Below, one piece after another: positions 29,779 through 51,585 of a stretch of DNA of 58,239 bases. The notes under the pieces were generated by a model. That model was not told the origin of the DNA and ran no database searches. It saw only the letters and a list, made by a program, of their open reading frames with translations. Positions within the stretch are counted from its first letter, which is position 1. The number at the start of each line of letters is the position of its first letter. The stretch is from Candidatus Blackburnbacteria bacterium RIFCSPHIGHO2_01_FULL_43_15b (GTDB taxonomy: Bacteria; Patescibacteriota; Microgenomatia; UBA8517; UBA10165). Location of the stretch: NCBI GenBank assembly GCA_001816385.1, contig MHBW01000031.1, positions 1 to 58,239 on the forward strand, in the 5' to 3' direction. The translations under genes and the position numbers were made by a program.

Positions 29779-30879
29779 ATGAAACTTTCAATACTTCAAG
29801 AAGATTTGGCTGGTAACATTACACTTGCTTCACGATTTGTTTCAACACGCGCACAGCTTCCGGTACTTTCAAATATTTTACTAAAAACCCAAAATGGAAA
29901 ATTATCTTTATCAGCAACCAACCTGGAAACTGGAATCAACGTTTCAACAGGTGCAAAAATAGAAAAAGAAGGGACAATCACAGTTCCCGCAAAAATTTTG
30001 GTTGATCTTGTCAACCATTTACCAGCAGGTAAGGTTTCTTTGGAAGTTGACAAAGATCAGCTTAAAATTTCATGCAACAGCATATCGGCTAATATTTCCG
30101 GTATTCCGGCAACAGAGTTTCCAAATGTTCCTGACTTAGTAAAAGAGGCAACCTTCTCTTTAAAGAGAGAAACATTAGATACTTTAACGGATAATGTTGC
30201 GTTTTCAGCAGCAACGGAGGACACGAGACCGATTTTAACAGGGATTAATCTAATAGTTGGGGAGAAGGTAATAGCAGTAGCCACAGACGGCTTTAGGATG
30301 TCCTACAAAGAGCTTGACGGGGTTAATTTTGACAAGAATGGTTCCAAATTTCTTCTGCCGGCCAGAGTTGTTGAAGAGTTAAATCGGGCATTGGGAGCAA
30401 AAACTGAAGATGTAAAAGTAGCAGTTTTGCAAAAAGAAGGTCAGATAATTTTTCAATCGGAAAATATTATTTTAACCAGCCGTTTGATTGATGGTGAGTT
30501 TCCGGATTACAATCGGGTCATGCCCAAAGCTTGGACAACCAAAGCCTCCTTAGGGAAAGACGAGCTTTTACAAGCTGTTAAGGCAACCTCAGTCTTTGCC
30601 CGGGAATCAGCCAGCATTGTAAGAATTAAGTTTGACTCGAATGGCTTGACCCTAACCTCTGAAAGTAGTCAATATGGGAAAGAAGAGATTCAAGTTGAAG
30701 CAAAAACTGAAGGAGACGAGGTTCAGATTGCCTTTAATTATAAATACTTATTAGATTTCCTAAATTCAATAGATGGAGATTCAATAGTGATAGAAACTCA
30801 AGGACCAACTACCCCTGGTGTTTTCCAGGATTCTAAAGACCCAACATATAAACATATAATCATGCCTGTAAGAGTTTAA
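29779..30879 (+). CDS. dnaN: DNA polymerase III beta sliding clamp
   Basis: The start is set at MKLSILQEDL (ATG 29779). It shows the typical three-domain clamp pattern (PVLSNILLKT..., TDGFRMS..., LIDGEFPDYNRVMP). Confidence 0.92.
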   Translation: MKLSILQEDLAGNITLASRFVSTRAQLPVLSNILLKTQNGKLSLSATNLETGINVSTGAKIEKEGTITVPAKILVDLVNHLPAGKVSLEVDKDQLKISCNSISANISGIPATEFPNVPDLVKEATFSLKRETLDTLTDNVAFSAATEDTRPILTGINLIVGEKVIAVATDGFRMSYKELDGVNFDKNGSKFLLPARVVEELNRALGAKTEDVKVAVLQKEGQIIFQSENIILTSRLIDGEFPDYNRVMPKAWTTKASLGKDELLQAVKATSVFARESASIVRIKFDSNGLTLTSESSQYGKEEIQVEAKTEGDEVQIAFNYKYLLDFLNSIDGDSIVIETQGPTTPGVFQDSKDPTYKHIIMPVRV

Positions 30880-31862
30880 CTACTTCCTTGTATATACTTT
30901 GAGTTTACCGCTGGGGTGTAGATATAGACCGGTTGGTCTCCTTCGTTGGTTTTGGCCGTACCCGTGAGAATATAAATTGGATATAAAGTGTTTGGTTGTG
31001 GTGGGTAGAAAAGTAAAGCGCTGTCGATTCTTATAATATTGACAGAGGTTGGAACGTAAAGCGCTGGTTCTGTAGTGGGTTGACCAATGGTGACAATTTT
31101 GCCTTCTTTTAATAAAGACTCTTTAACTTCTTCCAAAGTTTTGGCAGGATAATTTGTTGGATTTTGAGGATTGGCAAAGCCTGCTTTATAAAGAAAGGAA
31201 TAAACCTTACCATCTTTGCCCAAATAGGAAGTTACGAGAGATGTTGTGGGGTTGTTATCAACGACGCGTGTTTTGGTAATGGTCGGATCGAGTTTTAATT
31301 CGAGAATATTATTCTCAAACATTTTTCGTGAACCATTAATAACCAAAGTTGCCCCTGTGGGGGTAAGGTCGTTCGTCGAGATGAGATTTTGAATAAAATT
31401 TGAGGCCACCTGTTCGCTGGGCAATTCTCCCTGGGAAGATATTGGAGAGCTACTTGTGTCATGGACAAAGTTGATATCAAGTGGGGAGAGTCGAACGAAC
31501 AAACTTTGTGGGCCGGAGAGCCATAGATAGTAGTCCCCAAAAACACTGTCGGTTGAGATATTTGAGGGATTTTCGGGGAAGCCAAAATTTTTAGCCAAAG
31601 CTTTAGCTTCCACGGAATTTAAACTCTTGGGAGATATTTGATAAAGAGAAACCTGGGTTGGCAGATCTGTCCCTGTGAGATTGAAAGTAATCGCGGGAGG
31701 AACTTTCTGGCCCGTCAGGTTTGGATAAGCAATCGAGGGTAGGTTGGGGAGAGATTGTTTGGCGGTTTTGTTGCTTTTCCCCTGAACCCAGACTATGGCC
31801 AGAAGGGTAGCAATTACAGCCAGCATTATTAAAAGCCAGTGGTTTTTGAAAAAATTTAACAT
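30876..31862 (-). CDS. membrane-anchored extracytoplasmic protein, function unknown (first gene of the T4SS-like locus)
   Basis: The start is set at MLNFFKNHWLLIMLAVIATLLAIVW (ATG 31862), giving a single N-terminal TM helix. Its stop overlaps the dnaN stop within TTAA (convergent genes). Confidence 0.6.
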   Translation of the reverse strand: MLNFFKNHWLLIMLAVIATLLAIVWVQGKSNKTAKQSLPNLPSIAYPNLTGQKVPPAITFNLTGTDLPTQVSLYQISPKSLNSVEAKALAKNFGFPENPSNISTDSVFGDYYLWLSGPQSLFVRLSPLDINFVHDTSSSPISSQGELPSEQVASNFIQNLISTNDLTPTGATLVINGSRKMFENNILELKLDPTITKTRVVDNNPTTSLVTSYLGKDGKVYSFLYKAGFANPQNPTNYPAKTLEEVKESLLKEGKIVTIGQPTTEPALYVPTSVNIIRIDSALLFYPPQPNTLYPIYILTGTAKTNEGDQPVYIYTPAVNSKYIQGSS

Positions 31863-31887
31863 AGTTTTTGGGATGACACCTTCTTTG

Positions 31888-33780
31888 TTACCATGTAGTT
31901 CCGCGTTTTCCGGGTAAAGGAATATAAGGCGGTGCCATTGGAATTGTAACAGAACCACTAATCTTTAAGAATTCGTAATGCAAATGGTTTGGGTCGCTGC
32001 CAAAGACATTGCCTGTCGCTCCAACATTTCCAATTTGTGTGCCTGAAGAGACATTTTGGTTGTTTTGTACGCTTCTGGATATCATGTGGGCATAAATTAT
32101 TTCTACGGTTTTACCATTGCAGGAAGTTGTGATTCGCACACATTCTCCGTAAAGTGGGCTGTAGCAGTTAAAGGAAGCAATACCTCTGCTGGTTGCATAA
32201 ATAGGCGCACCCTGGATTCTTCCTTTGGGGCTATTGCCAATATCGACAGCTTCCGCGGTGCTGTGGGTTGACACTACCGTGTCGTTTGGTTCTGAGGTAA
32301 TGGTTCCATAAGTTGTTGCCCAGCCACTGGGACAATCGTCGGGCGGATTACCAACCCTGATTGAGGCGTTGTTGGCAGTGGTTTGAACTTCGGGTTGTTC
32401 GACAACTCGAGCGCTGACGCTAACAGCCAAAACAACATTTACATCTTCTAAATTTTCCAGCTTTAAATTGATTTGGTGAGTTTCTTCTGACCAATTCTCA
32501 CTTGCTAAAGTTTTTGTGCCATCTTTACCTGAAGCGGTGACGGTTGCAGAGATTGTAGGATCACCTTCGAAAGGTTTTTGCTTTGGCTTGACGGTAACAG
32601 TAAAAGTTACATCTTGAGGCAACTCTTCATTTTTAAGCGCGTTTTTAGAAGAGGAAATTTCGATGGATACATACTGGTTGCCTTTAGAAAGTACATCTCC
32701 AACACCTCCTGTACTGCTTAGTGCCGCGCGTTGGGTAAAAGTGGGACCTGTATTGTTAAACACCAGAGGAATGACAATAACTGCAATAAGTATTAAAGCC
32801 AAAACTCCACCCCCGATGGCGGCTGCTTCTCCACCCCCCCCAACAATTAGTAAAAGCCGTCTTGCCCCCATAGCCAGTCTGGTCAATCCTGAGCCAAGTC
32901 CGTGAGCCGCAGAAGAAATCAAACCGCGTCCCAAAATTGCCGATTGAGATGCAGCGTTTTGGGCTGCACTGCCCGCAAACTGTTTCAAAACAGGGGTAAG
33001 TTTGGGAGAAATAAACTGATTAAAGGGTTCTTGGGCGATGCGAACAATATTTGAGGAGGGGCTGATATTTAAATTAAAAACATGTTCCGGATAACCTACC
33101 CGGGGTTGTTCGTAATCATAGCTTTTTGGAGGTACAATGCGGACATTCTTTACTTGACCGGTTAGTGTTTCGACCTCTTCGATGATTCCTTTTCTAGAGC
33201 CATGTAATACTCTAACTGCCTCGGAATTAGCAAACTCGGGGTTTTGGGCAAGAAGTTGGTTTATGGCGTCTTCCAGTCTTTGATCGGAAGTACGCGACCT
33301 TGGGAAAAAGGGAATGGCATCTTTTAATCCATCGGCAAGTCGATCCTGCCAGCTTTTGGGACGGGTAACTAGCGCCAAAAGGTATTGTTCTTGGCTTATT
33401 GGTGACTTACGAGGTTGTTGGGTGGGTGTTGTCGCAGGTCTTATTGGGTGGGATATAGGTATAAATGAAACTTCAGTTTGGGTTTTTGGATTTTTCCCAC
33501 CAGCTGGTGTTTGTTTTAGAAGCGCTTGCCATTGTTCAAGTTGGGTAGTGGGGACAGGCTCTTTAAATTCTGTTTCGGTTTGCTGGTAAACCAACTTGTC
33601 TGAGTCGGGCGATGGCCAATGGGGGTGTTGTTGGGTTTTTAGGATTGGTGGAATTACCGTAGGTGGAGGCACACCATGTGGGAGATTTTGAGAACGAAAC
33701 AAAGTTCGGTTTACGCGATGTTGCAGTTCAGAAATGATATTGGAGAAGACGCCAAAAAAGCCACCAGGTTTTGTAGCCAT
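31888..33780 (-). CDS. membrane protein with a C-terminal M23 (LytM-type) peptidoglycan endopeptidase domain
   Basis: 630 aa with a Pro-rich N-terminal half and a central Gly-rich TM segment (LLLIVGGGGEAAAIGGGVLALILIAVIVIPLVF). M23 motifs are HSTAEAVDIG...IYAHM...GNVGATGNVFGSDPNHLHYEF. Confidence 0.75.
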   Translation of the reverse strand: MATKPGGFFGVFSNIISELQHRVNRTLFRSQNLPHGVPPPTVIPPILKTQQHPHWPSPDSDKLVYQQTETEFKEPVPTTQLEQWQALLKQTPAGGKNPKTQTEVSFIPISHPIRPATTPTQQPRKSPISQEQYLLALVTRPKSWQDRLADGLKDAIPFFPRSRTSDQRLEDAINQLLAQNPEFANSEAVRVLHGSRKGIIEEVETLTGQVKNVRIVPPKSYDYEQPRVGYPEHVFNLNISPSSNIVRIAQEPFNQFISPKLTPVLKQFAGSAAQNAASQSAILGRGLISSAAHGLGSGLTRLAMGARRLLLIVGGGGEAAAIGGGVLALILIAVIVIPLVFNNTGPTFTQRAALSSTGGVGDVLSKGNQYVSIEISSSKNALKNEELPQDVTFTVTVKPKQKPFEGDPTISATVTASGKDGTKTLASENWSEETHQINLKLENLEDVNVVLAVSVSARVVEQPEVQTTANNASIRVGNPPDDCPSGWATTYGTITSEPNDTVVSTHSTAEAVDIGNSPKGRIQGAPIYATSRGIASFNCYSPLYGECVRITTSCNGKTVEIIYAHMISRSVQNNQNVSSGTQIGNVGATGNVFGSDPNHLHYEFLKISGSVTIPMAPPYIPLPGKRGTTW

Positions 33781-33798: not shown

Positions 33799-35562
33799 TT
33801 ACTGAGCTTCTTCGACGCGAAGAATAGGACCCGGGTTGGAGTTGGACACTGGAGTTTGTTGTATCTCGGCCGGATTGGTTGTCACTAGTTTGTGTTCTTC
33901 GTCTGAGGCCACGACACGGATAGCGACATGGTTTGGTCCGGCAAAGAAAATTCCTTCGCCCACGTCTGCGGATAATAACAGTTGTTTTTCCCCTTGGGAA
34001 AGTTTGAAAACCTCACCAACTTTATCTATGGCCGTGGGGGACTGTTTCATTAATAGTTTTAAGGCTGAATTGGTAACTATTGCCTTACCAATATCTAAGG
34101 ACAGAAAGTCTTCAACGTCTTGGGTTATGGTGGTTAAACCTAAGTAATATTTGCGCGAGCGCTTGGCAATAGAGAAGAGGAATTGCGCGGTATCGGGGTA
34201 GCGCATCATATGCCACGCCTCATCAACGATTAAAATGCGCTTTTTCAAGTTTTCTTTAATGCGAGTCCAGATAAAATCCAAAACCACAAACATCGCAATG
34301 GGGCGCAAGGATTCTTCCAAATCACGCACAGAAAAAACTGTAAATGGATTTCTAAGACTTATGTTTGTGTGCTGGTCAAAAATTCCAGCAAAAGACCCCT
34401 TAACAAATTTTTCGACCCGATCGGCCAAAGAGCGTGAAACCGCATCCTCCATCCCAATAAGTGTTTTATAAAGATCTTCCATTAAAGGGGGAGTCTTGGT
34501 TTGGGTTGCCGGATCAGGAGTTATTCCTTTGGCTTTATATGTGGCAATCAGAGCCCTGTCCAAAACTGCCTGTTCGGATGGGTTTAATGTCCCCATGATT
34601 ACCCCAAACAGAGAATGCAGGGAAAGGATTTTTAAACCCAGTTGATTTTCCTCAGGATCAATGATATTTGATAGGTCAAAAGGATTTATTTTTGCCTGTG
34701 AGTTGAAGGAAAAAGAGATAAACTCGCCGCCGACCGCCTCGGCAAGTTTTTTATATTCCTGTTCGGGGTCAATAATAAATACTTCCGTCCCAAGCATTAA
34801 AGACCGCAGTGCTTCTAACTTCACGCTGTAGCTTTTGCCGGATCCAGAAGTTGCGAAAACGGTTGAATTGTAGTTCTCAAGAGAAAAGCGGTCAAAGATA
34901 ACCAAGGAATCATTATCTTCGTTGATGCCGTACAAAACTCCGCTGTCTGAGGAAAGCTCGGCGGAAGAAAAAGGAAAAGTTGTTGATAGGGAAGTAGTAT
35001 CCATGTTGCGAGTTATGGATAATCTGTCTTCCCCCAATGGCAGGCTTGTTAAAAATCCATCCTCCATGCGCAAGGTAGTTTTTTTAGCCACAACCAACAA
35101 AGACCCCAAGGTGGACTCAACCTGGGCGGTAATATTGTTTAACTCTTCTAAGTTTGAAGCGGGGATGGTGATGTAAAAAGAGAACTGGAAAAAGCGCTCC
35201 GCACCTTTTACCAATTGGTCTTGTAAATCGTGGGCGTCTTCAAGTTTTGCTTGAGTTGCCGGGTTTAACACCTTGCCGCGTTGTAAATCTGTGGACAGTT
35301 CTGCCTCCATCTCGGTTATCTTTCTTCGCAAATCATCAAGCACGGTTTTGCCGGCAACGGGATAGGTAAAGAAGGAGATATCAAGAGAGTGATCAAAGTT
35401 GATAATGGGATCAAGCCAGCCGGGATAAACGAATCTTGGGTAACCTGACACAAAAAGAGTTCTAAAATAGCGGTCATCAATTTTTATATGGTTAAAATCA
35501 ACCTCAATTTTTTGTGGGGCAATAATATCTTGAATGGATTTGGAGGACACAGGTTTGATCAT
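33799..35562 (-). CDS. virB4: VirB4/TraC-like type IV secretion ATPase (C-terminal ATPase body)
   Basis: 587 aa. Walker A is FATSGSGKSYSVK and Walker B is ILIVDEAWHMM. The downstream TTITQDVEDF is typical of the VirB4/DUF87 ATPase family. Confidence 0.8.
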   Translation of the reverse strand: MIKPVSSKSIQDIIAPQKIEVDFNHIKIDDRYFRTLFVSGYPRFVYPGWLDPIINFDHSLDISFFTYPVAGKTVLDDLRRKITEMEAELSTDLQRGKVLNPATQAKLEDAHDLQDQLVKGAERFFQFSFYITIPASNLEELNNITAQVESTLGSLLVVAKKTTLRMEDGFLTSLPLGEDRLSITRNMDTTSLSTTFPFSSAELSSDSGVLYGINEDNDSLVIFDRFSLENYNSTVFATSGSGKSYSVKLEALRSLMLGTEVFIIDPEQEYKKLAEAVGGEFISFSFNSQAKINPFDLSNIIDPEENQLGLKILSLHSLFGVIMGTLNPSEQAVLDRALIATYKAKGITPDPATQTKTPPLMEDLYKTLIGMEDAVSRSLADRVEKFVKGSFAGIFDQHTNISLRNPFTVFSVRDLEESLRPIAMFVVLDFIWTRIKENLKKRILIVDEAWHMMRYPDTAQFLFSIAKRSRKYYLGLTTITQDVEDFLSLDIGKAIVTNSALKLLMKQSPTAIDKVGEVFKLSQGEKQLLLSADVGEGIFFAGPNHVAIRVVASDEEHKLVTTNPAEIQQTPVSNSNPGPILRVEEAQ

Positions 35563-36197
35563 GTTTGCTTATATATTTTGAAAAACAATGTGGCTAACTC
35601 TTCGGTCACCAACTGATCCATCTTAATTCCCAAGCGACCTACTTGGCGAATTAAGTGATCGCGTTTTGGATAAAGGACCGTTTTGGTTTTTTTGATGATG
35701 TAACTTTTTGAATAAGGCAGATTTTTGGCCCTCTTAGTCTTAACCGAGGGAGTAAACAAATCGATAAAGTTGCTTGTAGTGATACCAAGTTCAAGGGGCG
35801 AGAAAGGTATAACTATGTAAAACTCTTTTTCCAAAACATTGCGCTTTTTGACCATTTGTGAGACAAAATTTTTATAAACGACCATAAGATTTTTTAATTG
35901 CGGATTGGTTTGGAGTTTTTCCTGAGTATCCAAAAATGCAAGGTAGCGCGTAATATCCTTCTTTTGAGAACGGACAAGGATTTGGATAGGAAAAGACAAA
36001 GAGTTAAGAAGCGCGGCGTAAGAAATTGTTACCGCCTCCTGTTCTTTTTCGGATAAAAGTGAGAAGTTAAGCGCTGTGGAGCGCAAAACCACAGCAGCAC
36101 CGCCATCTTTGGTTAATACCACGTCATCAACAATGTCTGCAACGATAATATGATGTTGGGAAGAAGCTTTAATTGGTTGAATGTTACTCATAATCAC
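35559..36197 (-). CDS. VirB4 N-terminal-domain-like protein (putative split VirB4)
   Basis: 212 aa whose stop overlaps the virB4 ATG by 4 nt. IIVADIVDDVVLTKDGGAAVVLRSTALNFSLLSEKEQEAVTISYAALLNSLSFPIQILV resembles the N-terminal CagE/TrbE/VirB4 region. Confidence 0.45.
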   Translation of the reverse strand: MIMSNIQPIKASSQHHIIVADIVDDVVLTKDGGAAVVLRSTALNFSLLSEKEQEAVTISYAALLNSLSFPIQILVRSQKKDITRYLAFLDTQEKLQTNPQLKNLMVVYKNFVSQMVKKRNVLEKEFYIVIPFSPLELGITTSNFIDLFTPSVKTKRAKNLPYSKSYIIKKTKTVLYPKRDHLIRQVGRLGIKMDQLVTEELATLFFKIYKQT

Positions 36198-44078: not shown

Positions 44079-44164
44079 ATACTTAATATGGTTTAGCCTA
44101 AAAACAAGCATATACCATACTAAGTAACTTGTCAAAAAACCACCTCAAAAATTAATTGCATTTC

Positions 44165-44192: not shown

Positions 44193-44265
44193 CACTATGG
44201 AATTTGAAATTAGTTACTACCAGGACAACTTGAACTTAGAAGTAGAGTTTATCACAAGGAGGAAA

Positions 44266-45002: not shown

Positions 45003-46072
45003 TGTGATTGGGAAGAATATGACTTAAAAAGCCTCCATACGGTTCCACAGTAATCAGGCCCACACGCACGACTTGGGTTGCATGTTCCACAGTAGGCCCC
45101 AGCAACCTTTCTTATAGTTGGCTCGTCCCAAGCTGGTGTTGCTCCGGCGTCCCTTTTTATTTTAACAGCTGTGCCAACAAAAGCTGCAGCCACATTACAC
45201 CGATCGTCGGCAGTGATGGTCTTGTTCAATCCAAATTTTGATTGCAACACGCTTTGGATACCTACTAAACCACGAGAGGCGTTATCGTTTATTAAACTTC
45301 TCCATGTGGCGGCCTCGAATTGTGTTGCTCCACGGACGTCGTTGTTTGGACAACCCAATGACGGATCAGAACAGGTATTGTAGCAATACCCCTTTTTGAG
45401 GGTGTCGTATGGCGAACCAGCCCACCAATTGTCCGTGCTAAAAAACTTCACGTCCTCATCTGTGTAGCTAAAAGCTCCCGGGGCTTCGGTTTGGGAGATA
45501 GCCAATAAAAGAGGGGCTGGAACTTCAGTTGCTTCGGCTGCACTATTTATGATTCCCTTAAGATTTTCGGATTGCATATTGAAGGCTGAGGCGATTCCTG
45601 AGGTTATTCTGAAGGGATTAGCGTTGAATGGGTTTAGTGAGTCGATATATTCGTCAACTCCGCGGTTAAACTCGTTCTTTGTTTCTTCTGTTTCGGTCAG
45701 CTTAGGAGCATTTGTTCCATTGGTGTAAATAGTCCCAAAGAAAGGTATGCCGCCAGAAAAAAGCCTGGCGAAAACTTCATCAAACAGACCCCTGAGGGCA
45801 TTAAAGAAGTTTTCAAATTGTGCTTGGGGAGAGGGTGTGGGAGCATAGGCATTGGTTGAGTCACGGAAAAACTCCGCAGATTTTCCGAAGTCAGCAATGG
45901 TTGGAGAATCTCCTTTGTAAGGAATTAATTTCTGGGCGTTTTCAGGGCTAAATAGCTGCTGGCCCTTTTCGGTTCCGTAAGAATCGGGAGTAGTATCAGC
46001 AGCGTGCGTGGTTTGTGTGAATAGAATCAAAAAGAAGGGTAGGAGTGATAAGAATGATAAGAAGCGGATCAT
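44999..46072 (-). CDS. secreted lytic-transglycosylase-like (VirB1-like) protein
   Basis: 357 aa with a signal peptide (LLPFFLILFTQTTHA). LLLAISQTEAPGAF...VRGATQFEAATW resembles the catalytic Glu and G-x-x-Q motifs of SLT domains. The C-terminal half is Cys-rich. Confidence 0.5.
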   Translation of the reverse strand: MIRFLSFLSLLPFFLILFTQTTHAADTTPDSYGTEKGQQLFSPENAQKLIPYKGDSPTIADFGKSAEFFRDSTNAYAPTPSPQAQFENFFNALRGLFDEVFARLFSGGIPFFGTIYTNGTNAPKLTETEETKNEFNRGVDEYIDSLNPFNANPFRITSGIASAFNMQSENLKGIINSAAEATEVPAPLLLAISQTEAPGAFSYTDEDVKFFSTDNWWAGSPYDTLKKGYCYNTCSDPSLGCPNNDVRGATQFEAATWRSLINDNASRGLVGIQSVLQSKFGLNKTITADDRCNVAAAFVGTAVKIKRDAGATPAWDEPTIRKVAGAYCGTCNPSRACGPDYCGTVWRLFKSYSSQSQ

Positions 46073-46150: not shown

Positions 46151-46489
46151 CTATGGAGTCGTTACCTTAAATTGAGTTACCTGCACTCCTGTTACAGCTT
46201 GAATAACCAATAAAACCGCAAATGCCAAAACCAAAACAACTAGCCCCGCAATGGCTGCTGTTAGAGTATGTTTTGCTGATTCTACTGCCTTTGGATCAGA
46301 TCCTGAGGTTAGATATTTAAAACCTCCTATCAAAAACGTAACGAAAACTACCACACCGGAAAGAGCCAAAACGACATCAACGACGTTCCCAAAAGCGCAC
46401 TCCAAACCAGCAATTGTTGCGACATCCGACGCATCAACTGTGTCGCTTATCTTTGTGCCAACACATGCAGTTCCCAACCAGCTTGCCAT
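46151..46489 (-). CDS. VirB2/TrbC-like pilin-module protein, paralog 1
   Basis: 112 aa with two TM helices flanking the loop FLIGGFKYLTSGSDPKAVESAKHTLTAAIAGLVVLV. Confidence 0.55.
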   Translation of the reverse strand: MASWLGTACVGTKISDTVDASDVATIAGLECAFGNVVDVVLALSGVVVFVTFLIGGFKYLTSGSDPKAVESAKHTLTAAIAGLVVLVLAFAVLLVIQAVTGVQVTQFKVTTP

Positions 46490-46584
46490 ATTGCAAGTGT
46501 ATCAGAAAAGCAGCGATGGGGCAAAATGCGAAAGGGATTAGGATAGATACTAACCACTATCACCAATCCCTATCACTTTTGCTG

Positions 46585-46983
46585 TCAGACACCAACTCTG
46601 CTAATCGTAAGATTGAACAAGTCGACGTCGAACAATATCTTTATAAGTTGAGCAATTGCCCAAGCCGAAAAGACTACAACCAAACCAACCAAAGCTGACG
46701 TTATTTGTTGGCGAGCTTCTTCGGTTTTGTTTTTATCTCCACCTGAGGTGATCCATTTAATACCACCTAATACCAACCAGAAGAAGAACAAAACGGCTGC
46801 AACAACGACTAAAATTTTGATAGCTGTTGAGACGATTGCTCCAATTGTCAGTTCGGCAACAGTTGTGGATGGAGCACCTGTACCTATATTAATTTTTGCT
46901 TCGCCAGCTGCTGCTACAGGTGTAGCGGACAACGCCAAAGCTAAGCTAGAAGTCCAAAGAGAATTTAAAGTTTGTTTTGTCAT
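46585..46983 (-). CDS. VirB2/TrbC-like pilin-module protein, paralog 2
   Basis: 132 aa with a signal peptide. The loop is LVLGGIKWITSGGDKNKTEEARQQITSALVGLVVVF. Confidence 0.55.
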   Translation of the reverse strand: MTKQTLNSLWTSSLALALSATPVAAAGEAKINIGTGAPSTTVAELTIGAIVSTAIKILVVVAAVLFFFWLVLGGIKWITSGGDKNKTEEARQQITSALVGLVVVFSAWAIAQLIKILFDVDLFNLTISRVGV

Positions 46984-47010
46984 GTTTTCACCCCCTCGCC
47001 GTATGTGTGC

Positions 47011-47349
47011 TTATATTTTAATCGCGCCAAGATCAATTTGTAAAATGTTGACGCCAAAGACAGCTTCGATAAGCTTCAAGATTGCAAAAAGAGAAAGCAT
47101 AACGACAACCCCAAGAAGCGCATGAACTATGCTGTTGCGGGCCTTTTCGAGGGCCTTTGCGTCTCCTGTTGATGTAATCCACTGAAGCCCTCCTATTAAA
47201 AAGTAAACAATAAAAAGCACAAACCCGACGACAAAGAAAGTTTTAAGAATAACTGCTATAACGGCACTGAAACCGCTAACTCCTGCTAACCCAGAGGTGG
47301 GATTTAACTTGGAAGGCAATAATGGATTTGAAACGTCTGCTAAATACAT
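47011..47349 (-). CDS. VirB2/TrbC-like pilin-module protein, paralog 3
   Basis: 112 aa. The loop is FLIGGLQWITSTGDAKALEKARNSIVHALLGVVVML. Confidence 0.55.
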   Translation of the reverse strand: MYLADVSNPLLPSKLNPTSGLAGVSGFSAVIAVILKTFFVVGFVLFIVYFLIGGLQWITSTGDAKALEKARNSIVHALLGVVVMLSLFAILKLIEAVFGVNILQIDLGAIKI

Positions 47350-47362
47350 AATTTTGTGTTTG

Positions 47363-47734
47363 TCATTTAATGCTCAAATTGTTAATGAAATCGTCAATTT
47401 TCAAAATATCGATGCCCATCAAAAAACCGATTACAGATATAAACACTAAAGCGATAAAAACAACCACTAAACCAATAACAGCATTTGTAATTCCCTGCCT
47501 TGCGTCTGCTGCACCTTTGGGATCTCCGCCTGCGGTCATTAGGCTATAACCACCAATAACAATTTGGACAATAAACCACAAGATTGCCCCAACAGTCATA
47601 AACCCAATAATGTTGGACAACAGCTTTTCCAAAAGACCCCCTGCACCCTCCGTGAGGCTGGTAGGGTCACCCAAAGGACCAAAGCCCTTAATTTCCCCCA
47701 AACTTTCTGCTACTAAATTTGTCGAATTTGTCAT
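47363..47734 (-). CDS. VirB2/TrbC-like pilin-module protein, paralog 4
   Basis: 123 aa. The loop is IVIGGYSLMTAGGDPKGAADARQGITNAVIGLVVVF. Confidence 0.55.
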   Translation of the reverse strand: MTNSTNLVAESLGEIKGFGPLGDPTSLTEGAGGLLEKLLSNIIGFMTVGAILWFIVQIVIGGYSLMTAGGDPKGAADARQGITNAVIGLVVVFIALVFISVIGFLMGIDILKIDDFINNLSIK

Positions 47735-47753
47735 ATTTGTCGAATTTAACCCA

Positions 47754-48269
47754 TTAGGGAGTTATTAACTGCGGTTTAAGTATAGCCGTTGCATCTCCAA
47801 AGAATATTTGTCCAATGATTGCTGCAAACAGGAAGGACGCAGCGATTATAACTACACCTACCAGGCTTTGCCAAATTCTTGCCCAGGCAGCACCGACTGC
47901 TTTTGCATCTCCTCCCGCTTGAATAAATTGATACCCAGCAATTATAAAGTTAAACAAGGCCCAAACTCCACCAGCAATGACTAAAAGTCTTAAAATTGCG
48001 CTTATCAGATTTCCCAAACCAGAAACTTCAGGAGCAACTCTGGCGGGGGGGGTAATTTTACCAAACAAAGCTCCTGATCCGCCAGTGGAGGTGTAACAAA
48101 CAAAGGTGGGTTGGTCGCCTACAGTTATATTATTACAGGCACCTGGACATCTAGACATTCGACACTCAGCCTCACTGTCGAAAGTTTTGCCTGCTTGAGC
48201 AGAAGCTGGAGATGCACTAAAAAAGACAAGTGATAAAAAAAGGGTCAAAGCAAAGATGAGATTTTTCAT
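47754..48269 (-). CDS. VirB2/TrbC-like pilin-module protein, paralog 5, with a Cys-rich N-terminal insert
   Basis: 171 aa with a signal peptide (SASPASAQA) and the insert CRMSRCPGACNNITVGDQPTFVC. The loop is FIIAGYQFIQAGGDAKAVGAAWARIWQSLVGVVIIA. Confidence 0.55.
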   Translation of the reverse strand: MKNLIFALTLFLSLVFFSASPASAQAGKTFDSEAECRMSRCPGACNNITVGDQPTFVCYTSTGGSGALFGKITPPARVAPEVSGLGNLISAILRLLVIAGGVWALFNFIIAGYQFIQAGGDAKAVGAAWARIWQSLVGVVIIAASFLFAAIIGQIFFGDATAILKPQLITP

Positions 48270-48270
48270 A

Positions 48271-48681
48271 TTAAAATATTTTAATATTGGTCAACGCTTC
48301 AATAAGTTGAATTATCCAATATGAGACGAAGATAATCAAGAAACCGGTAATTGCCGAGAAAATAACCTTCTTCCCACGGCCAATGGCATCCCTGTCATCA
48401 GAGCCTGCGCCACGGATATATTCAAACCCGCCCCACAGGAAAAAGATGAAGACTATAACGCCGGCGATAAGATAAAGATTCCCGGCTACGGCTGAGACCA
48501 AACCTCCAATATTGGCTAATTCCTTAACAGGAGAGTTATATTCTTTGCCAATATCGACAGCTAAGGCAGAGGTGACTAGTAACTTGTGACTAGCGACTAG
48601 AGTAAGGAGGGTTGTAATTGTGTATTTTGCGAAACTAGCTACCACGTTACGAGTTGACGAGTTACTTTTTATTATTTTCAC
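48271..48681 (-). CDS. VirB2/TrbC-like pilin-module protein, paralog 6
   Basis: 136 aa. The loop is FLWGGFEYIRGAGSDDRDAIGRGKKVIFSAITGFLIIF. Confidence 0.5.
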   Translation of the reverse strand: MKIIKSNSSTRNVVASFAKYTITTLLTLVASHKLLVTSALAVDIGKEYNSPVKELANIGGLVSAVAGNLYLIAGVIVFIFFLWGGFEYIRGAGSDDRDAIGRGKKVIFSAITGFLIIFVSYWIIQLIEALTNIKIF

Positions 48682-48820: not shown

Positions 48821-49600
48821 TTATCCGCGGGTGACAAGTCGTGTTGCCTTTTTAACGTAATCAGTAAATTTCCCTTTCCCAAACCGTCTTGATCTTTTTG
48901 CAAAATTGGCAAGCGCCAGATCTAATTTCTTTGGGTTAAAGTCAGGCCAGAGAGTTTTTGTAAAGTAAAGTTCTGCATAAACCGCCTGCCAGGGGAAATA
49001 CCCGGAAAGCCTTTTGTCTCCGCCGGTTCTGATTATTAAATCCGGGTCGGGTATGCCGGCGGTATCCAAATAACCTGAAAATTCTTCCTCAGTTATGGGG
49101 GTTTCTGCAGAGCGCTGATGTGTTTGGACTTTGTCCAAGAGACGGGAGATAGCCCGCAAAAGTTCATCGCGCCCTCCGTAGTTGAGGGCAAAAGAAACGG
49201 TTATCTTTTTGTTATCTCTGGTTTTTTCAACAATCTTTTTGGCTAGAGTTGCAATATCTTCCGGAAACCAATCAATGTTGCCGATTATTTTTACCCGTAC
49301 TCCCAATTCTGCAAGCTCTAAAAGGTTAGTTTTTAACGCGTCCCGGAAGATTTTAAAAAGTCCTTGAAGCTCGTAAGTATCCCGTTTTTGATTTTCTGTA
49401 GAAAATGCCCAAAAAGTTAAATATCCGAGTCCGCGCTTTATAGCATGTTCGACAATCGGCTTGATGGTTTTTTCAGCAGCGACCCTGTGACCATCAATTG
49501 CGCCAACACCGTGTTTGGCAGCCCAACGGCGGTTGCCGTCCATAATTATTGCCACATGATTAGGAACACCAGTGGAAGAGTTATTTGCGATTTTTGCCAT
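48821..49600 (-). CDS. uppS: undecaprenyl diphosphate synthase (isoprenyl transferase)
   Basis: 259 aa. Motifs present: HVAIIMDGNRRWA, LTFWAFSTEN and IRTGGDKRLSGYFPWQ. Confidence 0.9.
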   Translation of the reverse strand: MAKIANNSSTGVPNHVAIIMDGNRRWAAKHGVGAIDGHRVAAEKTIKPIVEHAIKRGLGYLTFWAFSTENQKRDTYELQGLFKIFRDALKTNLLELAELGVRVKIIGNIDWFPEDIATLAKKIVEKTRDNKKITVSFALNYGGRDELLRAISRLLDKVQTHQRSAETPITEEEFSGYLDTAGIPDPDLIIRTGGDKRLSGYFPWQAVYAELYFTKTLWPDFNPKKLDLALANFAKRSRRFGKGKFTDYVKKATRLVTRG

Positions 49601-49694: not shown

Positions 49695-50012
49695 TTAGAA
49701 CAGGTTTCTAAACTGGCTAATTCCTAATATCAGTCCAAGTATTTGCACTATCCAAAAAGCGGCGAAAATAATTACAAAACCAATGACTGCTCGGGTTATC
49801 CTGTCTTTTCCGGCGGCGGTGGCTTTTGGATCACCATGGGACATCATGATTCCAAACCCTCCCCAGATGAAGTAAAGAAACAAAACTATACCAGCCAGAC
49901 CAAAAACATAAGGTACAAAAGCGCTGACGATGCCGCCCAAAGTATTCAGGTTTTGGTTATAGCCCGTCTCGTTTAAATTTTGCTGTAAAACTCCAAAATC
50001 TATTGCTGCCAT
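49695..50012 (-). CDS. VirB2/TrbC-like pilin-module protein, paralog 7
   Basis: 105 aa. The loop is FIWGGFGIMMSHGDPKATAAGKDRITRAVIGFVIIF. Confidence 0.55.
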   Translation of the reverse strand: MAAIDFGVLQQNLNETGYNQNLNTLGGIVSAFVPYVFGLAGIVLFLYFIWGGFGIMMSHGDPKATAAGKDRITRAVIGFVIIFAAFWIVQILGLILGISQFRNLF

Positions 50013-50058
50013 AAGAAAATTATTAACTTGCTATCTTGTTAAAACACAACTTCTCCCC

Positions 50059-50114
50059 GTCATACTGAACTTGATTCAGTATCTACATAGATTCCGTGTC
50101 AGGCACGGAATGAC
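50059..50114. repeat. paired hairpin element (GTCAT...ATGAC)
   Basis: gtcatactgaa-cttga-ttcagtatc at 50059-50083 and gattccgtg-tcagg-cacggaatgac at 50090-50114. It has the same flanks and the same CTTGA loop as 8988-9012, but a different, compensated stem. Confidence 0.8.
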
Positions 50115-50141
50115 AGCAAGAGGTAGGTTTTGAAACGAGAT

Positions 50142-51209
50142 CTACCCGAATCCTGGTAATCCTAATATATCTACTCCAATTAATTTTAACAAGAAGACGG
50201 AAAAAATTATCAAAATTAAACCGGATATCGCTGCGTTTAGGAGCTCCTTCCCACCTTGAATTTTATCCGGGTTGCCTGTTGAGCTCATAATTTGGAATCC
50301 TGCGAAGATTATTAACAAAAATGCAACCCCTCCAGCTATTCCCAAGGCCCACTTCAGAAACCACCCAACGAATTGATTGGTGTCTCGTATGGGTATGCAT
50401 CCTAGGGCTGTTTGCAAACTTGTTTTGCTTGAGTCGCACCAAGTAGGTTCGAATGCTGAGGTCGGCGGAGACTCCTCTCCAGGTTTGTAAGTAAAGGTGC
50501 TTTGATCTCCTCTTGTTTTGCCAACACTAAACTCACGAGAGCAAAGAACCTCCGCACTAATATCATCTGTTCTGCGTGCTTTAACTACAATGGTGTATTG
50601 ACCGTCTGATTGGAAATTGCCGGCGGTCGCCTCATATGTATCACCCTTTTGGCCACCACTGATTATTTGGCCTTTGTCAGGAGAAATTTCTGAGAATAAA
50701 CCGAACCTAGCTACAGCGATATCTGTAAGTTGAGAAAAATTTGAGAAAACAAAGTTAACCTGCTGGTCTACTCCTGGCTGCTTAGGGGTTTGGTCGACTC
50801 GGCATCCCTCATATGACGGATATACCTTATAATCAATTCGACAAACCTCTTCACTCTCACTATTAGCTTTAGTTATCTTAATTTGCTTATCTCCTACTGA
50901 TGTTTCATTTCCCTCCCCACCAACACTAAAAGTGAGGTCGCTACCTTCTACTTTGGGGGTCAGGGGCATTGAGCTGTCACGAGCATTCAGTTTAAGTAAA
51001 TACCAATTACCCCCACGAACAAAGTAAATGCTATAGTCTTGAGTAGGGTTAAATTTGTATCCGGAGACGGTGAATTTGGCTGGTCTGTCAGCGTAAAGTG
51101 TTTTAGGGTTGGTGGTTACCGAGCAACGATCAAATGCATAAGCTGGGCGAGGAACAATGGTGGCTGGTGCAAGGAGTGCAACCGAAATTAAAAAAAATAT
51201 TTTTTTCAT
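50142..51209 (-). CDS. large secreted ectodomain fused to a C-terminal VirB2/TrbC-like pilin module (paralog 8)
   Basis: The start is set at MKKIFFLISVALLAPA (ATG 51209), giving a signal peptide. A roughly 280-aa beta-rich domain follows. The C-terminus is FLLIIFAGFQIMSSTGNPDKIQGGKELLNAAISGLILIIF. Confidence 0.55.
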   Translation of the reverse strand: MKKIFFLISVALLAPATIVPRPAYAFDRCSVTTNPKTLYADRPAKFTVSGYKFNPTQDYSIYFVRGGNWYLLKLNARDSSMPLTPKVEGSDLTFSVGGEGNETSVGDKQIKITKANSESEEVCRIDYKVYPSYEGCRVDQTPKQPGVDQQVNFVFSNFSQLTDIAVARFGLFSEISPDKGQIISGGQKGDTYEATAGNFQSDGQYTIVVKARRTDDISAEVLCSREFSVGKTRGDQSTFTYKPGEESPPTSAFEPTWCDSSKTSLQTALGCIPIRDTNQFVGWFLKWALGIAGGVAFLLIIFAGFQIMSSTGNPDKIQGGKELLNAAISGLILIIFSVFLLKLIGVDILGLPGFG

Positions 51210-51307
51210 ACAAACAAACCCTCTTTTTCTAGAGGTTTGTGCAAAGTGTAGCACAATAGACCCGTTTCTCGCGAGTTTGGCTTGTTGTTTCGTGATACAA
51301 TGCAGCC

Positions 51308-51583
51308 ATGGAGAAAACAATTTTAAACTATCGAGTTATTATAGAGCCTGAAAAGTATCCAAGTGGCGATCTGGTTTATAATGCCCATTGTCCAACACTG
51401 GGTGTAGCTGACTATGGCGATACTGTGGACGAGGCTTTATCAAGCATACAAGACGGTATTGAATTAGCTATTGAAACCTTGGCGAGTAAGGGCGAGGGTG
51501 TTCCGGTAGATAACATTGAACAACAGATAATAGCTTCAGCAAAAGTTACTTTTCAACAAAAGTTAAAAATCCAAATAGTCTAA
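51308..51583 (+). CDS. hicB: HicB-family antitoxin
   Basis: 91 aa. YRVIIEPEKYPSGDLVYNAHCPTLGVADYGDTVDEALSSIQDGIELAIE fits the HicB/UPF0150 fold pattern. Confidence 0.7.
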   Translation: MEKTILNYRVIIEPEKYPSGDLVYNAHCPTLGVADYGDTVDEALSSIQDGIELAIETLASKGEGVPVDNIEQQIIASAKVTFQQKLKIQIV

Positions 51584-51585
51584 CC

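What the first reader, a model, noticed from the sequence alone, without database searches (positions are those of the whole stretch)
30876..51320. T4SS-like locus without coupling protein or relaxase, directly downstream of dnaN
**Content seen.** About 20 kb directly downstream of dnaN carries an M23 peptidase, a VirB4-like ATPase, a PrgI/VirB3-like protein, a VirB6/TrbL-like protein, an SLT-like hydrolase and eight VirB2/TrbC-like pilin-module genes. A SpoIID-domain gene lies just outside at 51848.

**What is missing.** I see no VirD4-type coupling ATPase, no VirB11, no relaxase and no integrase or transposase. That argues against a conventional conjugative element.

**Interpretation.** It may instead be a chromosomally fixed surface-filament or secretion machine. 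Such a machine could matter for an episymbiotic small-genome bacterium.

**Other observations.** TA-type modules (AbiEii-like, Fic+XRE) and uppS are interleaved, and hicBA lies next to the locus, so the locus looks like a mosaic.
Basis: partly seen in the sequence, partly recalled or inferred. Interest (0 to 1): 0.8.

Follow-up and report, generated by a model that had tools for sequence, protein, structure and literature searches.

The report
Known Patescibacteria type IV secretion locus
This is a real, chromosomally fixed type IV secretion/pilus gene cluster next to the replication origin of an ultrasmall Microgenomatia (Blackburnbacteria-like) bacterium, but this kind of cluster, including its lack of coupling protein and relaxase, its pilin arrays and its position next to dnaA/dnaN, has already been described in print.

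Summary
Downstream of dnaA-dnaN lie an M23 peptidase, a monoderm-type VirB4 ATPase, a PrgI/VirB3-like protein, eight VirB2-like pilin genes, uppS and toxin-antitoxin-like inserts. No integrase, relaxase or second secretion ATPase was found anywhere in the 58-kb window.

I add four points:
- VirB4 is split. The 212-aa ORF upstream is a TrsD-like copy of the VirB4 N-domain.
- The 473-aa polytopic protein matches no sequence profile, but its AlphaFold model hits R388 VirB6 first.
- The "SLT-like" gene is supported only indirectly.
- No VirB8-like protein was found.

The order dnaA-dnaN | VirB4-TrsD-PrgI | VirB6-like | pilins recurs in most of 80 Microgenomatia loci. VirB4 is 67-93% identical across them, so the locus is inherited vertically and is not an ICE.

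All of this matches published work (Wang 2023 Cell; Quinonero-Coronel 2025 Microb Genom). A 2026 preprint on a cultured Microgenomatia strain reports possible T4SS pili.

Small new items:
- A soluble, hypervariable protein sits on the opposite strand next to the VirB6-like gene in 61 of 63 loci.
- A roughly 2.8-kb tract is near-identical to a genome that is otherwise about 77% identical.
- The locus is transcribed head-on to replication.

The parts
28207..30879 (+). dnaA (28207-29583) and dnaN (29740-30879). They are context and mark the replication origin.
   Evidence: Pfam Bac_DnaA 2.5e-64 and DNA_pol3_beta domains. The cumulative GC skew reaches its minimum at about 29-30 kb. Perfect DnaA boxes lie at 28189 and 29502. 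rnpA, yidC and jag lie on the other side.
30876..31862 (-). Bitopic membrane protein of about 328 aa, counted from the ATG at 31862. It is the last gene of the VirB4 operon and its function is unknown.
   Evidence: No Pfam, NCBIfam or PDB match. It has one N-terminal hydrophobic helix. A bitopic membrane protein occupies the same position in most loci (clusters c16, c15, c21, c39). 15 of 66 such proteins carry an Ig-like Big_5 domain and none carries VirB8.
31888..33780 (-). Membrane-anchored M23 peptidoglycan endopeptidase, acting as a cell-wall remodeller (functional analogue of VirB1).
   Evidence: PF01551 1.1e-14 at residues 523-606. NCBIfam hits to peptidoglycan endopeptidases. The cluster is present next to VirB4 in 79 loci.
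33799..35562 (-). VirB4 ATPase lacking its N-terminal domain.
   Evidence: NF045971, 389 bits (cutoff 325), aligned to profile positions 183-734 of 752. The only PDB hit is 4AG5, the Thermoanaerobacter VirB4, at 2e-45. Walker A is present. Present in 80 of 80 loci at 67-93% identity. The best plasmid relatives are Bacillota and Actinomycetota at 32-38%.
35559..36197 (-). TrsD-like protein, a separately encoded VirB4 N-terminal domain. Its stop codon overlaps the VirB4 start.
   Evidence: NF041427 TrsD/TraD at 2.5e-6, and VirB4_plasma profile positions 107-233 at 2e-5; both are below their curated cutoffs. Present in 80 of 80 loci. It is fused to VirB4 as one 832-aa ORF in L041. The L081 orthologue carries PF26593 TraC-like.
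36202..37185 (-). PrgI/VirB3-like membrane protein with a long Pro/Gln-rich linker and a C-terminal domain.
   Evidence: PF12666 at 1.7e-6, 28.9 bits against a 27-bit cutoff. Present in 78 of 80 loci.
37370..38218 (+). DUF6922 gene followed by an AbiEii toxin gene broken into two frames. This is a decayed toxin-antitoxin insert and not part of the machine.
   Evidence: PF21956 at 2.4e-13. AbiEii profile positions 10-43 and 130-190 lie on two overlapping ORFs. The insert is absent from L001 and L081. The sequence is identical in three independent assemblies.
38232..39530 (-). Acidic soluble protein of 432 aa, probably largely disordered, with an apparent internal duplication. It evolves fast and its function is unknown.
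   Evidence: No family match. No transmembrane segment and no Walker A. Only 55-58% identical to L001 and L081, where its neighbours are 86-96% identical. Found only in Blackburnbacteria-like loci.
39614..41641 (+). Soluble protein of 675 aa on the opposite strand. It fills a positionally conserved, hypervariable slot next to the VirB6-like gene.
   Evidence: A neighbour on the opposite strand is present in 61 of 63 loci, 440-1067 aa long, falling into at least 21 clusters. Eight representatives have no Pfam match. 58 of 61 lack Walker A and 57 of 61 lack a hydrophobic segment. Only 35 relatives exist among 1.84 billion representatives, and the conserved core is the C-terminal 390 aa or so. 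Weak profile links reach clusters c96 and c20, and c20 matches c30 at 97% by hhalign. The AlphaFold model has pLDDT 55, so the fold search is uninformative.
41651..43072 (-). Polytopic membrane protein of 473 aa and the VirB6-like candidate. It has a signal/anchor helix, an extracellular N-domain with conserved cysteines, and about five or six transmembrane helices.
   Evidence: No sequence-profile match. The AlphaFold model has pLDDT 79.9. The top five of 350,542 PDB chains are all from R388 stalk entries (TrwJ/VirB5-TrwI/VirB6), read as TrwI/VirB6 from their chain lengths: probability 0.84-1.00, E 0.04-0.3, target-normalised TM-score 0.40-0.46. Present in 63 of 81 loci at a fixed position.
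43116..44565 (.). Fic gene (43116-44135, minus strand) and XRE-family HTH gene (44197-44565, plus strand). A variable insert, not part of the machine.
   Evidence: PF02661 at 1e-24 and PF01381 at 8e-11. L081 has HicAB in this slot. The pair lies inside the tract that is about 100% identical to L001. A 12/12 consensus promoter sits at 44165-44192.
44592..45002 (-). Small bitopic membrane protein of 136 aa. It belongs to a conserved accessory family that usually sits directly upstream of the VirB6-like gene.
   Evidence: hhalign of c45 against c22 gives 93% over the C-terminal domain. jackhmmer links it to c22, which occupies the same position in other loci. No known domain.
44999..46072 (-). 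Secreted protein of 357 aa and a candidate lysozyme-like (SLT_3/SLT) cell-wall hydrolase.
   Evidence: No direct profile hit. jackhmmer aligns residues 150-222 and 273-348 to the C-terminus of the proteins at the same position in other loci (clusters c11 and c33). 4 of 33 of those proteins hit PF18896 SLT_3, best 5.7e-9. L059 hits SLT PF01464 at E 0.03 within the aligned stretch. The motif LLLAISQTEAPGAFSY resembles the consensus IWxxESxASNY.
46151..48681 (-). Six tandem VirB2-like pilin genes: 46151-46489, 46585-46983, 47011-47349, 47363-47734, 47754-48269 and 48271-48681.
   Evidence: PF18895, E from 4.6e-11 to 5e-4. All share a two-helix hairpin core and are 16-36% identical to each other. 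Comparable arrays occur in other loci.
48821..49600 (-). uppS (undecaprenyl-diphosphate synthase) embedded in the pilin array.
   Evidence: PF01255 at 4.8e-70. It occupies the same position in L081.
49695..51320 (-). Pilin 7 (49695-50012) and pilin 8 (50142-51209 or 51320). Pilin 8 is a pilin module fused behind an extracellular domain of about 280 aa.
   Evidence: PF18895 at 1.7e-11 and 4.5e-6; TrbC/VirB2 PF04956 at 1.2e-4. Pilin 8 is the fastest-evolving gene of the locus, 44% identical to its L081 counterpart.
51308..51810 (+). hicB-hicA toxin-antitoxin pair at the edge of the locus.
   Evidence: HicA PF07927 at 1.7e-16. HicB-like at 4e-4, below the cutoff.

Best explanation
**What it is.** This is the chromosomal, vertically inherited type IV secretion system typical of Patescibacteria, here in a Microgenomatia (Blackburnbacteria-like) genome next to oriC.

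**Proposed working (inferred unless marked as shown).**
- A monoderm-type VirB4 ATPase powers the machine. It is encoded in two pieces, a TrsD-like N-domain and an ATPase body.
- VirB4 sits on a membrane platform made of the PrgI/VirB3-like protein and the VirB6-like polytopic protein.
- An M23 endopeptidase and a lysozyme-like protein open the cell wall locally.
- VirB4 extracts VirB2-like pilins from the membrane and polymerises them into a surface tube or filament that reaches the host cell. There are eight divergent pilin paralogues, one of which carries a large extracellular domain.
- In well-studied systems, pilus biogenesis needs VirB4 but not a coupling protein. This fits a locus with no VirD4 or relaxase.
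- The filament serves host contact and probably exchange of macromolecules, rather than conjugative DNA export.

**What is shown.** Gene identities, the split VirB4, conserved synteny, and the absence of mobility genes in the window.
For: **Gene content.**

**Split VirB4.**
- The profile coordinates of the two ORFs are complementary.
- The two are fused into one ORF in L041.
- The L081 orthologue of the small ORF is annotated TraC-like.

**VirB6-like fold.**

**Vertical inheritance.**
- 80 loci from Blackburnbacteria, Woesebacteria and Microgenomates carry VirB4 at 67-93% identity.
- They share the order rnpA | dnaA dnaN | ... VirB4-TrsD-PrgI ... VirB6-like ... pilins.

**No mobility genes.**
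- No T4CP, VirB11, relaxase or integrase.
- Only two P-loop ORFs in the window.
- No flanking repeats.

**Monoderm ancestry.** The best PDB hit is a Firmicute VirB4. The best plasmid hits are Bacillota and Actinomycetota.

**Literature.**
- PMC10633639: the Saccharibacteria T4SS with a pilin array is essential for epibiotic growth and has no recognisable coupling protein or relaxase.
- PMC12102498: distribution across the phylum, TrsD, VirB2 arrays of 2-11 genes averaging about 25% identity, and proximity to dnaA/dnaN.
- 10.64898/2026.06.21.733656: a cultured Microgenomatia strain shows tubular structures, possibly T4SS pili, extending toward the host.
Against: - No experiment exists for this organism. 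The substrate of any Patescibacteria T4SS is unknown.
- The VirB6 assignment rests on a weak fold match (TM-score 0.30-0.46, E 0.04).
- The lysozyme assignment is transitive.
- No VirB8-like subunit was found.
- A coupling protein could be encoded elsewhere in the genome. PMC12102498 reports VirD4 homologues in many Patescibacteria genomes, mostly far from virB4. Protein or DNA transfer therefore cannot be excluded.
- Three of the eight pilin genes are below Pfam's threshold.
Confidence: 0.78

Rival explanations
1. The machine is mainly an effector or protein translocator into the host bacterium. It would use a coupling protein encoded elsewhere, or none at all, as in the Bordetella Ptl and Brucella VirB systems. 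The pilins would form only a short conduit.
For: - Some T4SSs secrete proteins without a T4CP (review text).
- Two fast-evolving soluble proteins with no known domain lie inside the locus: 38232-39530 and 39614-41641. The second fills a slot conserved in 61 of 63 loci. Such proteins could be substrates.
- PMC10633639 suggests the system may export proteins.
Against: - No effector domain, secretion signal or chaperone was recognised.
- The AlphaFold model of the 675-aa protein is unreliable.
- This rival does not exclude the pilus model.
Confidence: 0.3
2. The machine imports nucleic acid or other macromolecules from the host. It would work in the uptake direction, like the ComB and Ced systems, and feed a bacterium that cannot make nucleotides.
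For: - VirB4 has weak matches to the archaeal DNA-import ATPases CedB (3.6e-9) and CedD (4.9e-8).
- The 2026 preprint links Microgenomatia parasitism to host RNA acquisition. [quoted passage not shown]
Against: - The matches to conjugative VirB4 families are far stronger: 3.7e-116 for the CD1110 family.
- No DNA-binding or nuclease component lies in the locus.
- Per the review, ComEC-dependent competence is dispensable in Saccharibacteria while the T4SS is essential. The link to uptake is therefore speculative.
Confidence: 0.2
3. The locus is a decayed integrative conjugative element that has lost its relaxase, coupling protein and integrase.
For: - VirB4 is of conjugative (MPF_FATA-like) ancestry.
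- Toxin-antitoxin-like modules are interleaved.
- A 2.8-kb tract has been exchanged between lineages.
Against: - The locus sits at the same chromosomal position in most of 80 loci spanning several candidate orders. Core proteins are strongly conserved.
- No att repeats.
- Base composition in the locus is no more atypical than elsewhere in the window.
- The homologous system is essential in Saccharibacteria.
Confidence: 0.03

Closest known systems
Patescibacteria T4SS as catalogued by Quinonero-Coronel et al. 2025 (Microb Genom, PMC12102498), Microgenomatia arrangement
   Same: - VirB4 related to MPF_FATA.
- A TrsD-like gene next to virB4.
- PrgI-type VirB3.
- M23-type hydrolase.
- An array of sequence-divergent VirB2-like pilins: eight here at a mean of 26% identity, against 2-11 at about 25% in the paper.
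- No relaxase or T4CP nearby.
- Position next to dnaA, dnaN and rnpA.
   Different: Nothing essential differs. The paper reports that VirB6 homologues are scarce in Microgenomatia. Here a conserved polytopic protein at a fixed position gives a VirB6-like fold. The paper does not mention the hypervariable gene on the opposite strand or the head-on orientation.
Southlakia epibionticum (Saccharibacteria) T4SS, SEML1_0006-0019 (Wang et al. 2023, Cell, PMC10633639)
   Same: - Origin-proximal chromosomal cluster.
- Gram-positive-like subunit set plus a pilin array.
- No recognisable coupling protein or relaxase.
- Peptidase and lysozyme genes beside virB4.
   Different: - It belongs to a different class (Saccharimonadia against Microgenomatia).
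- It has six pilins against eight here.
- Essentiality was shown there by Tn-seq and nothing has been tested here.
- The accessory genes are not detectably homologous.
Monoderm conjugative T4SS (MPF_FATA: pCF10 Prg/Pcf, pGO1 Trs, CTn2 of C. difficile)
   Same: - VirB4 of the CD1110 family, above the curated cutoff.
- TrsD-like, PrgI-like and VirB6-like membrane components.
- Cell-wall hydrolases.
- No outer-membrane core complex.
   Different: - No T4CP (PcfC), relaxase, oriT, adhesin (PrgB) or VirB8-like (PrgL) subunit was found.
- It carries VirB2-like pilins, which Gram-positive systems lack.
- It is chromosomal and not mobile.
- VirB4 is at most 38% identical to plasmid-borne homologues.
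Diderm VirB/Trw-type T4SS (A. tumefaciens VirB, R388 Trw)
   Same: - VirB2-type two-helix pilins (weak TrbC/VirB2 PF04956 hit for pilin 7).
- VirB6-like fold.
- VirB4-driven pilus biogenesis is the mechanistic model.
   Different: - No VirB5, VirB7, VirB9, VirB10 or VirB11.
- The cell envelope is monoderm.
- There are eight pilin paralogues rather than one major pilin.

Membership tests
Patescibacteria-type chromosomal T4SS (PMC12102498; PMC10633639) | VirB4 ATPase of monoderm (MPF_FATA-related) type | tested here: met
   NF045971, 389 bits against a 325-bit cutoff. PDB 4AG5 at 2e-45. The best plasmid hits are Bacillota and Actinomycetota. Placement inside the Patescibacteria VirB4 clade by phylogeny was not done.
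Patescibacteria-type chromosomal T4SS (PMC12102498; PMC10633639) | TrsD-like protein and PrgI/VirB3-like protein adjacent to virB4 | tested here: met
   TrsD NF041427 at 2.5e-6, below the curated cutoff. PrgI PF12666 above its cutoff. Both are adjacent to virB4 in 78-80 of 80 loci.
Patescibacteria-type chromosomal T4SS (PMC12102498; PMC10633639) | Array of divergent VirB2-like pilin genes near virB4 | tested here: met
   Eight PF18895 genes, five above the cutoff. Pairwise identity is 16-36% with a mean of 26%.
Patescibacteria-type chromosomal T4SS (PMC12102498; PMC10633639) | No relaxase or coupling protein near virB4, and a chromosomal location that is often origin-proximal | tested here: met
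   Pfam on nearly all ORFs of 90 aa or more in the 58-kb window. Walker-A scan. dnaN ends at the start of the locus. GC-skew switch and DnaA boxes.
Patescibacteria-type chromosomal T4SS (PMC12102498; PMC10633639) | Needed for epibiotic growth or makes a surface structure | not testable with these tools
   Shown only for S. epibionticum by Tn-seq. Putative pili were seen in the Microgenomatia strain OT8.
Canonical T4SS inner-membrane platform | VirB6-family polytopic subunit | tested here: inconclusive
   No TrbL/VirB6 Pfam hit in any of 61 homologues and no hit with a profile against PDB. The AlphaFold model (pLDDT 79.9) has the R388 stalk (TrwI/VirB6) chains as its top five Foldseek hits: probability 0.84-1.00, target-normalised TM-score 0.40-0.46, E 0.04-0.3.
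Canonical T4SS inner-membrane platform | VirB8-like (NTF2-fold) bitopic subunit | tested here: not met
   No VirB8, PrgL or TraM hit among 66 bitopic proteins of the locus family, and 15 of them carry Big_5. No structure prediction was made for 30876-31862 or 44592-45002, so a fold-level VirB8 remains possible.
Canonical T4SS inner-membrane platform | VirB1-type lytic transglycosylase | tested here: inconclusive
   44999-46072 has no direct SLT hit. There is a transitive link to proteins carrying SLT_3 or SLT at the same position. The M23 peptidase is confirmed as an alternative hydrolase.
Conjugative element (ICE or conjugative plasmid) | Relaxase, type IV coupling protein, integrase or replication module, and attachment-site repeats | tested here: not met
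   None detected. The locus is fixed at the same site across the class.
Type II/IV toxin-antitoxin modules (AbiE, Fic-XRE, HicAB) | Paired toxin and antitoxin genes with intact reading frames | tested here: inconclusive
   HicA is strong and HicB weak. Fic and XRE are divergently arranged. AbiEii is split into two frames and so is probably a pseudogene. No PADLOC scan was run.

The most novel reading that the evidence does not exclude
Across Microgenomatia, a large soluble protein is encoded on the opposite strand right next to the VirB6-like gene. Here it is 39614-41641, possibly working with the acidic protein at 38232-39530.

The slot is conserved in 61 of 63 loci. Its occupant evolves so fast that at least 21 sequence clusters exist, and only some of them can be linked by profiles.

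The most novel reading still open is that this is a lineage-specific substrate or host-specificity factor of the T4SS, diversifying in an arms race with host bacteria. On that reading, homologous recombination within the locus shuffles surface-exposed and accessory parts between lineages, as in the 2.8-kb tract that is about 100% identical to a genome otherwise about 77% identical.
Probability: 0.15. Interest if true: 0.6.

Novelty: already known. Interest (0 to 1): 0.25.

Why it matters
The T4SS of Patescibacteria is one of the few machines known to be essential for the epibiotic lifestyle of this very large, mostly uncultured group. Its substrate and direction of transport are still unknown.

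This window adds no new kind of system. It is a clean example, assembled independently in three samples, from Microgenomatia. That class now has a first cultured member with possible T4SS pili.

The useful increments are:
- a candidate for the VirB6 subunit that sequence profiles miss in this class;
- a clear case of a split VirB4;
- a positionally conserved, hypervariable soluble protein that would be a reasonable first candidate when looking for substrates or specificity factors.

Tried and rejected
**Unassigned ORFs.**
- Pfam at E up to 10 and NCBIfam on all unassigned ORFs gave nothing except TrsD for the 212-aa ORF.
- Sequence or profile searches against PDB gave nothing. They covered the 473-aa family, the 357-aa, 360-aa and 212-aa proteins and the 675-aa family.

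**The 212-aa ORF and VirB4.** hhalign of the 212-aa family against the N-terminus of the VirB4 ORF was not significant. This is expected, because the VirB4 ORF lacks that domain. The two had clustered together only through a fused ORF in L041.

**The 675-aa protein.**
- Only 8 homologues were usable for the alignment.
- The model has pLDDT 55 and Foldseek returned only noise, with PPAR ligand-binding domains at probability 0.08 or less.
- No conclusion about a relaxase-like or T4CP-like fold is therefore possible from structure. The lack of Walker A argues against an ATPase.

**The hypervariable slot.** Profile-profile comparison among eight clusters of the opposite-strand proteins linked only c20 with c30.

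**The 357-aa protein.** A direct HMM built from the lysozyme-like C-terminus of cluster c11 scored only marginally against it (E 0.015 in a 30-sequence set).

**Regulatory and repeat scans.**
- Promoter-like and terminator-like sites are not enriched over shuffles.
- No meaningful repeats lie in or around the locus.
- No tRNA genes and no Rfam matches in the window.

**Chimeric assembly, considered and rejected.** I considered this as the cause of the mosaic. The window is 100% identical to contigs from three independent samples. A chimera in L001 itself cannot be excluded.

Full report
**1. What is in the sequence**

The window is the origin region of a small bacterial chromosome.
- rnpA, yidC and jag lie on the minus strand, and dnaA (28207-29583) and dnaN (29740-30879) on the plus strand.
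- The cumulative GC skew reaches its minimum at about 29-30 kb.
- Perfect DnaA boxes lie at 28189 and 29502.

From the stop codon of dnaN to 51.3 kb, almost all genes are on the minus strand.
- an M23 peptidase (31888-33780);
- a VirB4 ATPase (33799-35562; NCBIfam CD1110-family VirB4, 389 bits against a cutoff of 325);
- a PrgI/VirB3-like protein (36202-37185);
- eight PF18895 T4SS_pilin genes between 46151 and 51320;
- uppS inside the pilin array;
- Fic with XRE, DUF6922 with AbiEii, and hicBA.

The eight pilins share a two-helix hairpin core. They are only 16-36% identical to each other, with a mean of 26%.

**2. Corrections and additions to the gene list**

*Split VirB4.* The VirB4 ORF aligns to positions 183-734 of the 752-position CD1110 profile. 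The 212-aa ORF just upstream (35559-36197) overlaps the VirB4 start. It matches TrsD/TraD (2.5e-6) and positions 107-233 of a full-length VirB4 profile (2e-5). It occurs in all 80 related loci, is fused to VirB4 in L041, and its orthologue in L081 is annotated TraC-like.

*VirB6-like gene.* The 473-aa gene at 41651-43072 has no Pfam, NCBIfam or PDB-profile match, even when 61 family members are scanned. An AlphaFold model built on 70 homologues has pLDDT 79.9. Its five best Foldseek matches in the PDB are chains from R388 stalk entries (TrwJ/VirB5-TrwI/VirB6), which I read as TrwI/VirB6 from their lengths. Probabilities are 0.84-1.00, but TM-scores are modest at 0.30-0.46. I treat it as VirB6-like with moderate confidence.

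*SLT-like gene.* The gene at 44999-46072 has no direct match. jackhmmer links its residues 150-222 and 273-348 to the C-terminus of the larger proteins that occupy the same position in other loci. A few of those hit Pfam SLT_3 (4 of 33, best 5.7e-9), or SLT within the aligned stretch. The assignment is plausible but not shown.

*AbiEii.* The gene is broken into two frames. The same sequence occurs in three independent assemblies, so it is probably a real pseudogene.

*VirB8.* No VirB8-like protein was found. The two bitopic membrane proteins (30876-31862 and 44592-45002) belong to families in which 15 of 66 members carry an Ig-like Big_5 domain.

**3. What is missing**

Pfam scans of nearly all non-overlapping ORFs of 90 aa or more, including every large one, found no integrase, transposase, relaxase, VirD4/TcpA or VirB11. 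The only real Walker-A ORFs in the window are DnaA and VirB4. There are no flanking repeats. This holds for the window only. The literature notes that VirD4 homologues in Patescibacteria usually lie far from virB4.

**4. Relatives and synteny**

A genome-collection scan with VirB4 returned 80 loci, all from Blackburnbacteria, Woesebacteria or other Microgenomates/Patescibacteria MAGs. Some carry obviously wrong "Gammaproteobacteria" titles. VirB4 identity is 67-93%.

tblastn and clustering of all ORFs give a conserved layout:
- rnpA | dnaA dnaN;
- a small bitopic protein;
- M23, VirB4, TrsD-like and PrgI;
- a variable stretch;
- a large soluble protein on the opposite strand;
- the VirB6-like gene;
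- a small bitopic protein;
- a lysozyme-like protein;
- the pilin array.

The closest relative is L081 (Blackburnbacteria JACQIP010000024.1), with VirB4 96% identical. It has the same order, including uppS inside the pilin array. It carries HicAB where the window has Fic-XRE, and it has no AbiE module. The toxin-antitoxin-like genes are therefore variable inserts, and the machine genes are fixed. This rules out a conventional or recently decayed ICE.

**5. Mechanism**

The best-supported reading is a monoderm-derived T4SS that has been kept for pilus or conduit formation at the host interface.
- Shown: gene identities, the split VirB4, synteny and the lack of mobility genes.
- Inferred from established T4SS biology: VirB4 with VirB3 and VirB6 forms the membrane platform and extracts pilins. 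Pilus biogenesis does not need a coupling protein. Hydrolases open the wall.
- From the literature: the homologous Saccharibacteria system is essential for epibiotic growth (PMC10633639). A cultured Microgenomatia strain shows tubular structures, possibly T4SS pili, reaching toward the host (10.64898/2026.06.21.733656).

Protein export and macromolecule import remain open and are not mutually exclusive with this reading.

**6. Comparison with what is known**

Every element of the finding is already described:
- a T4SS without coupling protein or relaxase;
- Gram-positive-like subunits together with VirB2-like pilin arrays;
- M23 and lysozyme neighbours;
- TrsD;
- proximity to dnaA/dnaN, explicitly including Microgenomatia.

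These are in Wang et al. 2023 and Quinonero-Coronel et al. 2025, and are summarised in a 2025 FEMS review. Hence "already known".

**7. Small new points**

*A hypervariable slot.* In 61 of 63 loci the gene next to the VirB6-like gene lies on the opposite strand. It encodes a soluble protein of 440-1067 aa with no Pfam domain in the representatives scanned. Nearly all lack Walker A and hydrophobic segments. These proteins fall into at least 21 clusters.

The window's copy is 39614-41641. It has only 35 relatives among 1.84 billion representative proteins. Weak profile links tie it to some of the other clusters. Its fold could not be predicted.

*A recombination tract.* Window positions of about 43.0-45.75 kb (Fic, XRE, the 136-aa protein and most of the lysozyme-like gene) are about 100% identical to L001. 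The backbone of L001 is about 77% identical to the window. Against L081, which has the nearest backbone, the same genes are only 54-59% identical. The window itself is reproduced exactly in three independent samples.

*Head-on orientation.* All core T4SS genes are transcribed toward the origin, head-on to replication. This orientation relative to dnaN holds in all loci examined that include dnaN.

**8. Verdict**

The novelty class is "already known" and the interest score is 0.25. The most novel reading still open is that the hypervariable soluble proteins are T4SS substrates or specificity factors. I give that a probability of about 0.15.

Noticed in passing
window 43000-45750 (Fic, XRE, 136-aa and 357-aa genes), compared with L001 positions 1-3200: This tract of about 2.8 kb is 99-100% identical in nucleotides to L001 (CAYYLO010000005.1), whose backbone is only about 77% identical. 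The same genes are 54-59% identical in amino acids to L081, the closest backbone relative. This points to recent recombination between lineages inside the T4SS locus, or to a chimera in L001.
   Followed up: partly
window 39614-41641 and the equivalent slot in L001-L080: A large soluble protein on the opposite strand sits next to the VirB6-like gene in 61 of 63 loci. These proteins fall into at least 21 sequence clusters, only partly linkable by profiles, and have no known domain.
   Followed up: partly
window 30876-37185 and 41651-51320, relative to the origin at about 28-30 kb: All core T4SS genes lie on the lagging strand and are transcribed head-on to replication. The orientation opposite to dnaN is the same in all related loci examined that include dnaN. 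The published discussion mentions only gene dosage.
   Followed up: no
window 35559-36197 and 33799-35562; L041 10001-12500: VirB4 is encoded as two overlapping ORFs, a TrsD-like N-domain and the ATPase. In L041 the two are one 832-aa ORF.
   Followed up: partly
window 50142-51320: The last pilin gene carries an N-terminal extracellular domain of about 280 aa in front of the pilin module. It is the fastest-evolving gene of the locus, 44% identical to its L081 counterpart. It may be a tip or adhesin pilin.
   Followed up: no
window 37642-38218: The AbiEii toxin gene is split into two frames, with the middle of the domain missing. The sequence is identical in three independent metagenome assemblies, so this is probably a real pseudogene and not a sequencing error.
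   Followed up: partly
L081 13631-14093 and 21195-22035: In the closest relative, HicAB occupies the slot where the window has Fic-XRE. A HepT/MNT pair sits at the end of the pilin array. Toxin-antitoxin-like modules seem to turn over at fixed intergenic slots of the locus.
   Followed up: no
window 48821-49600 and 7961-8734: uppS lies inside the pilin array, as it also does in L081. The undecaprenyl-diphosphatase gene bacA is also in the window. This may link carrier-lipid supply with envelope machinery.
   Followed up: no
window 2349-7553: A 1734-aa ORF carries three DUF5667 stretches and nothing else recognisable.
   Followed up: no
window 152-1213: A second Fic-domain protein has an N-terminal winged-helix match of the Penicillinase_R type.
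   Followed up: no
L003, L005, L008, L020 and others, around the PrgI gene: Small ORFs of about 125 aa (cluster c14, 28 copies in 22 loci) are scattered around PrgI in many loci. By my reading of the sequences, not a test, they resemble four-helix-bundle proteins of the kind encoded in 23S rRNA intervening sequences.
   Followed up: no
L001, L006, L008 and many other loci (record titles): Many of the MAG records that carry this Microgenomatia locus are titled "uncultured Gammaproteobacteria bacterium". Given the gene content and their nearest relatives, this label is evidently wrong.
   Followed up: no
window 44165-44192: A perfect 12/12 sigma-70 consensus promoter with an extended -10 TG lies directly upstream of the XRE gene. 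Promoter-like sites as a whole are not enriched.
   Followed up: no
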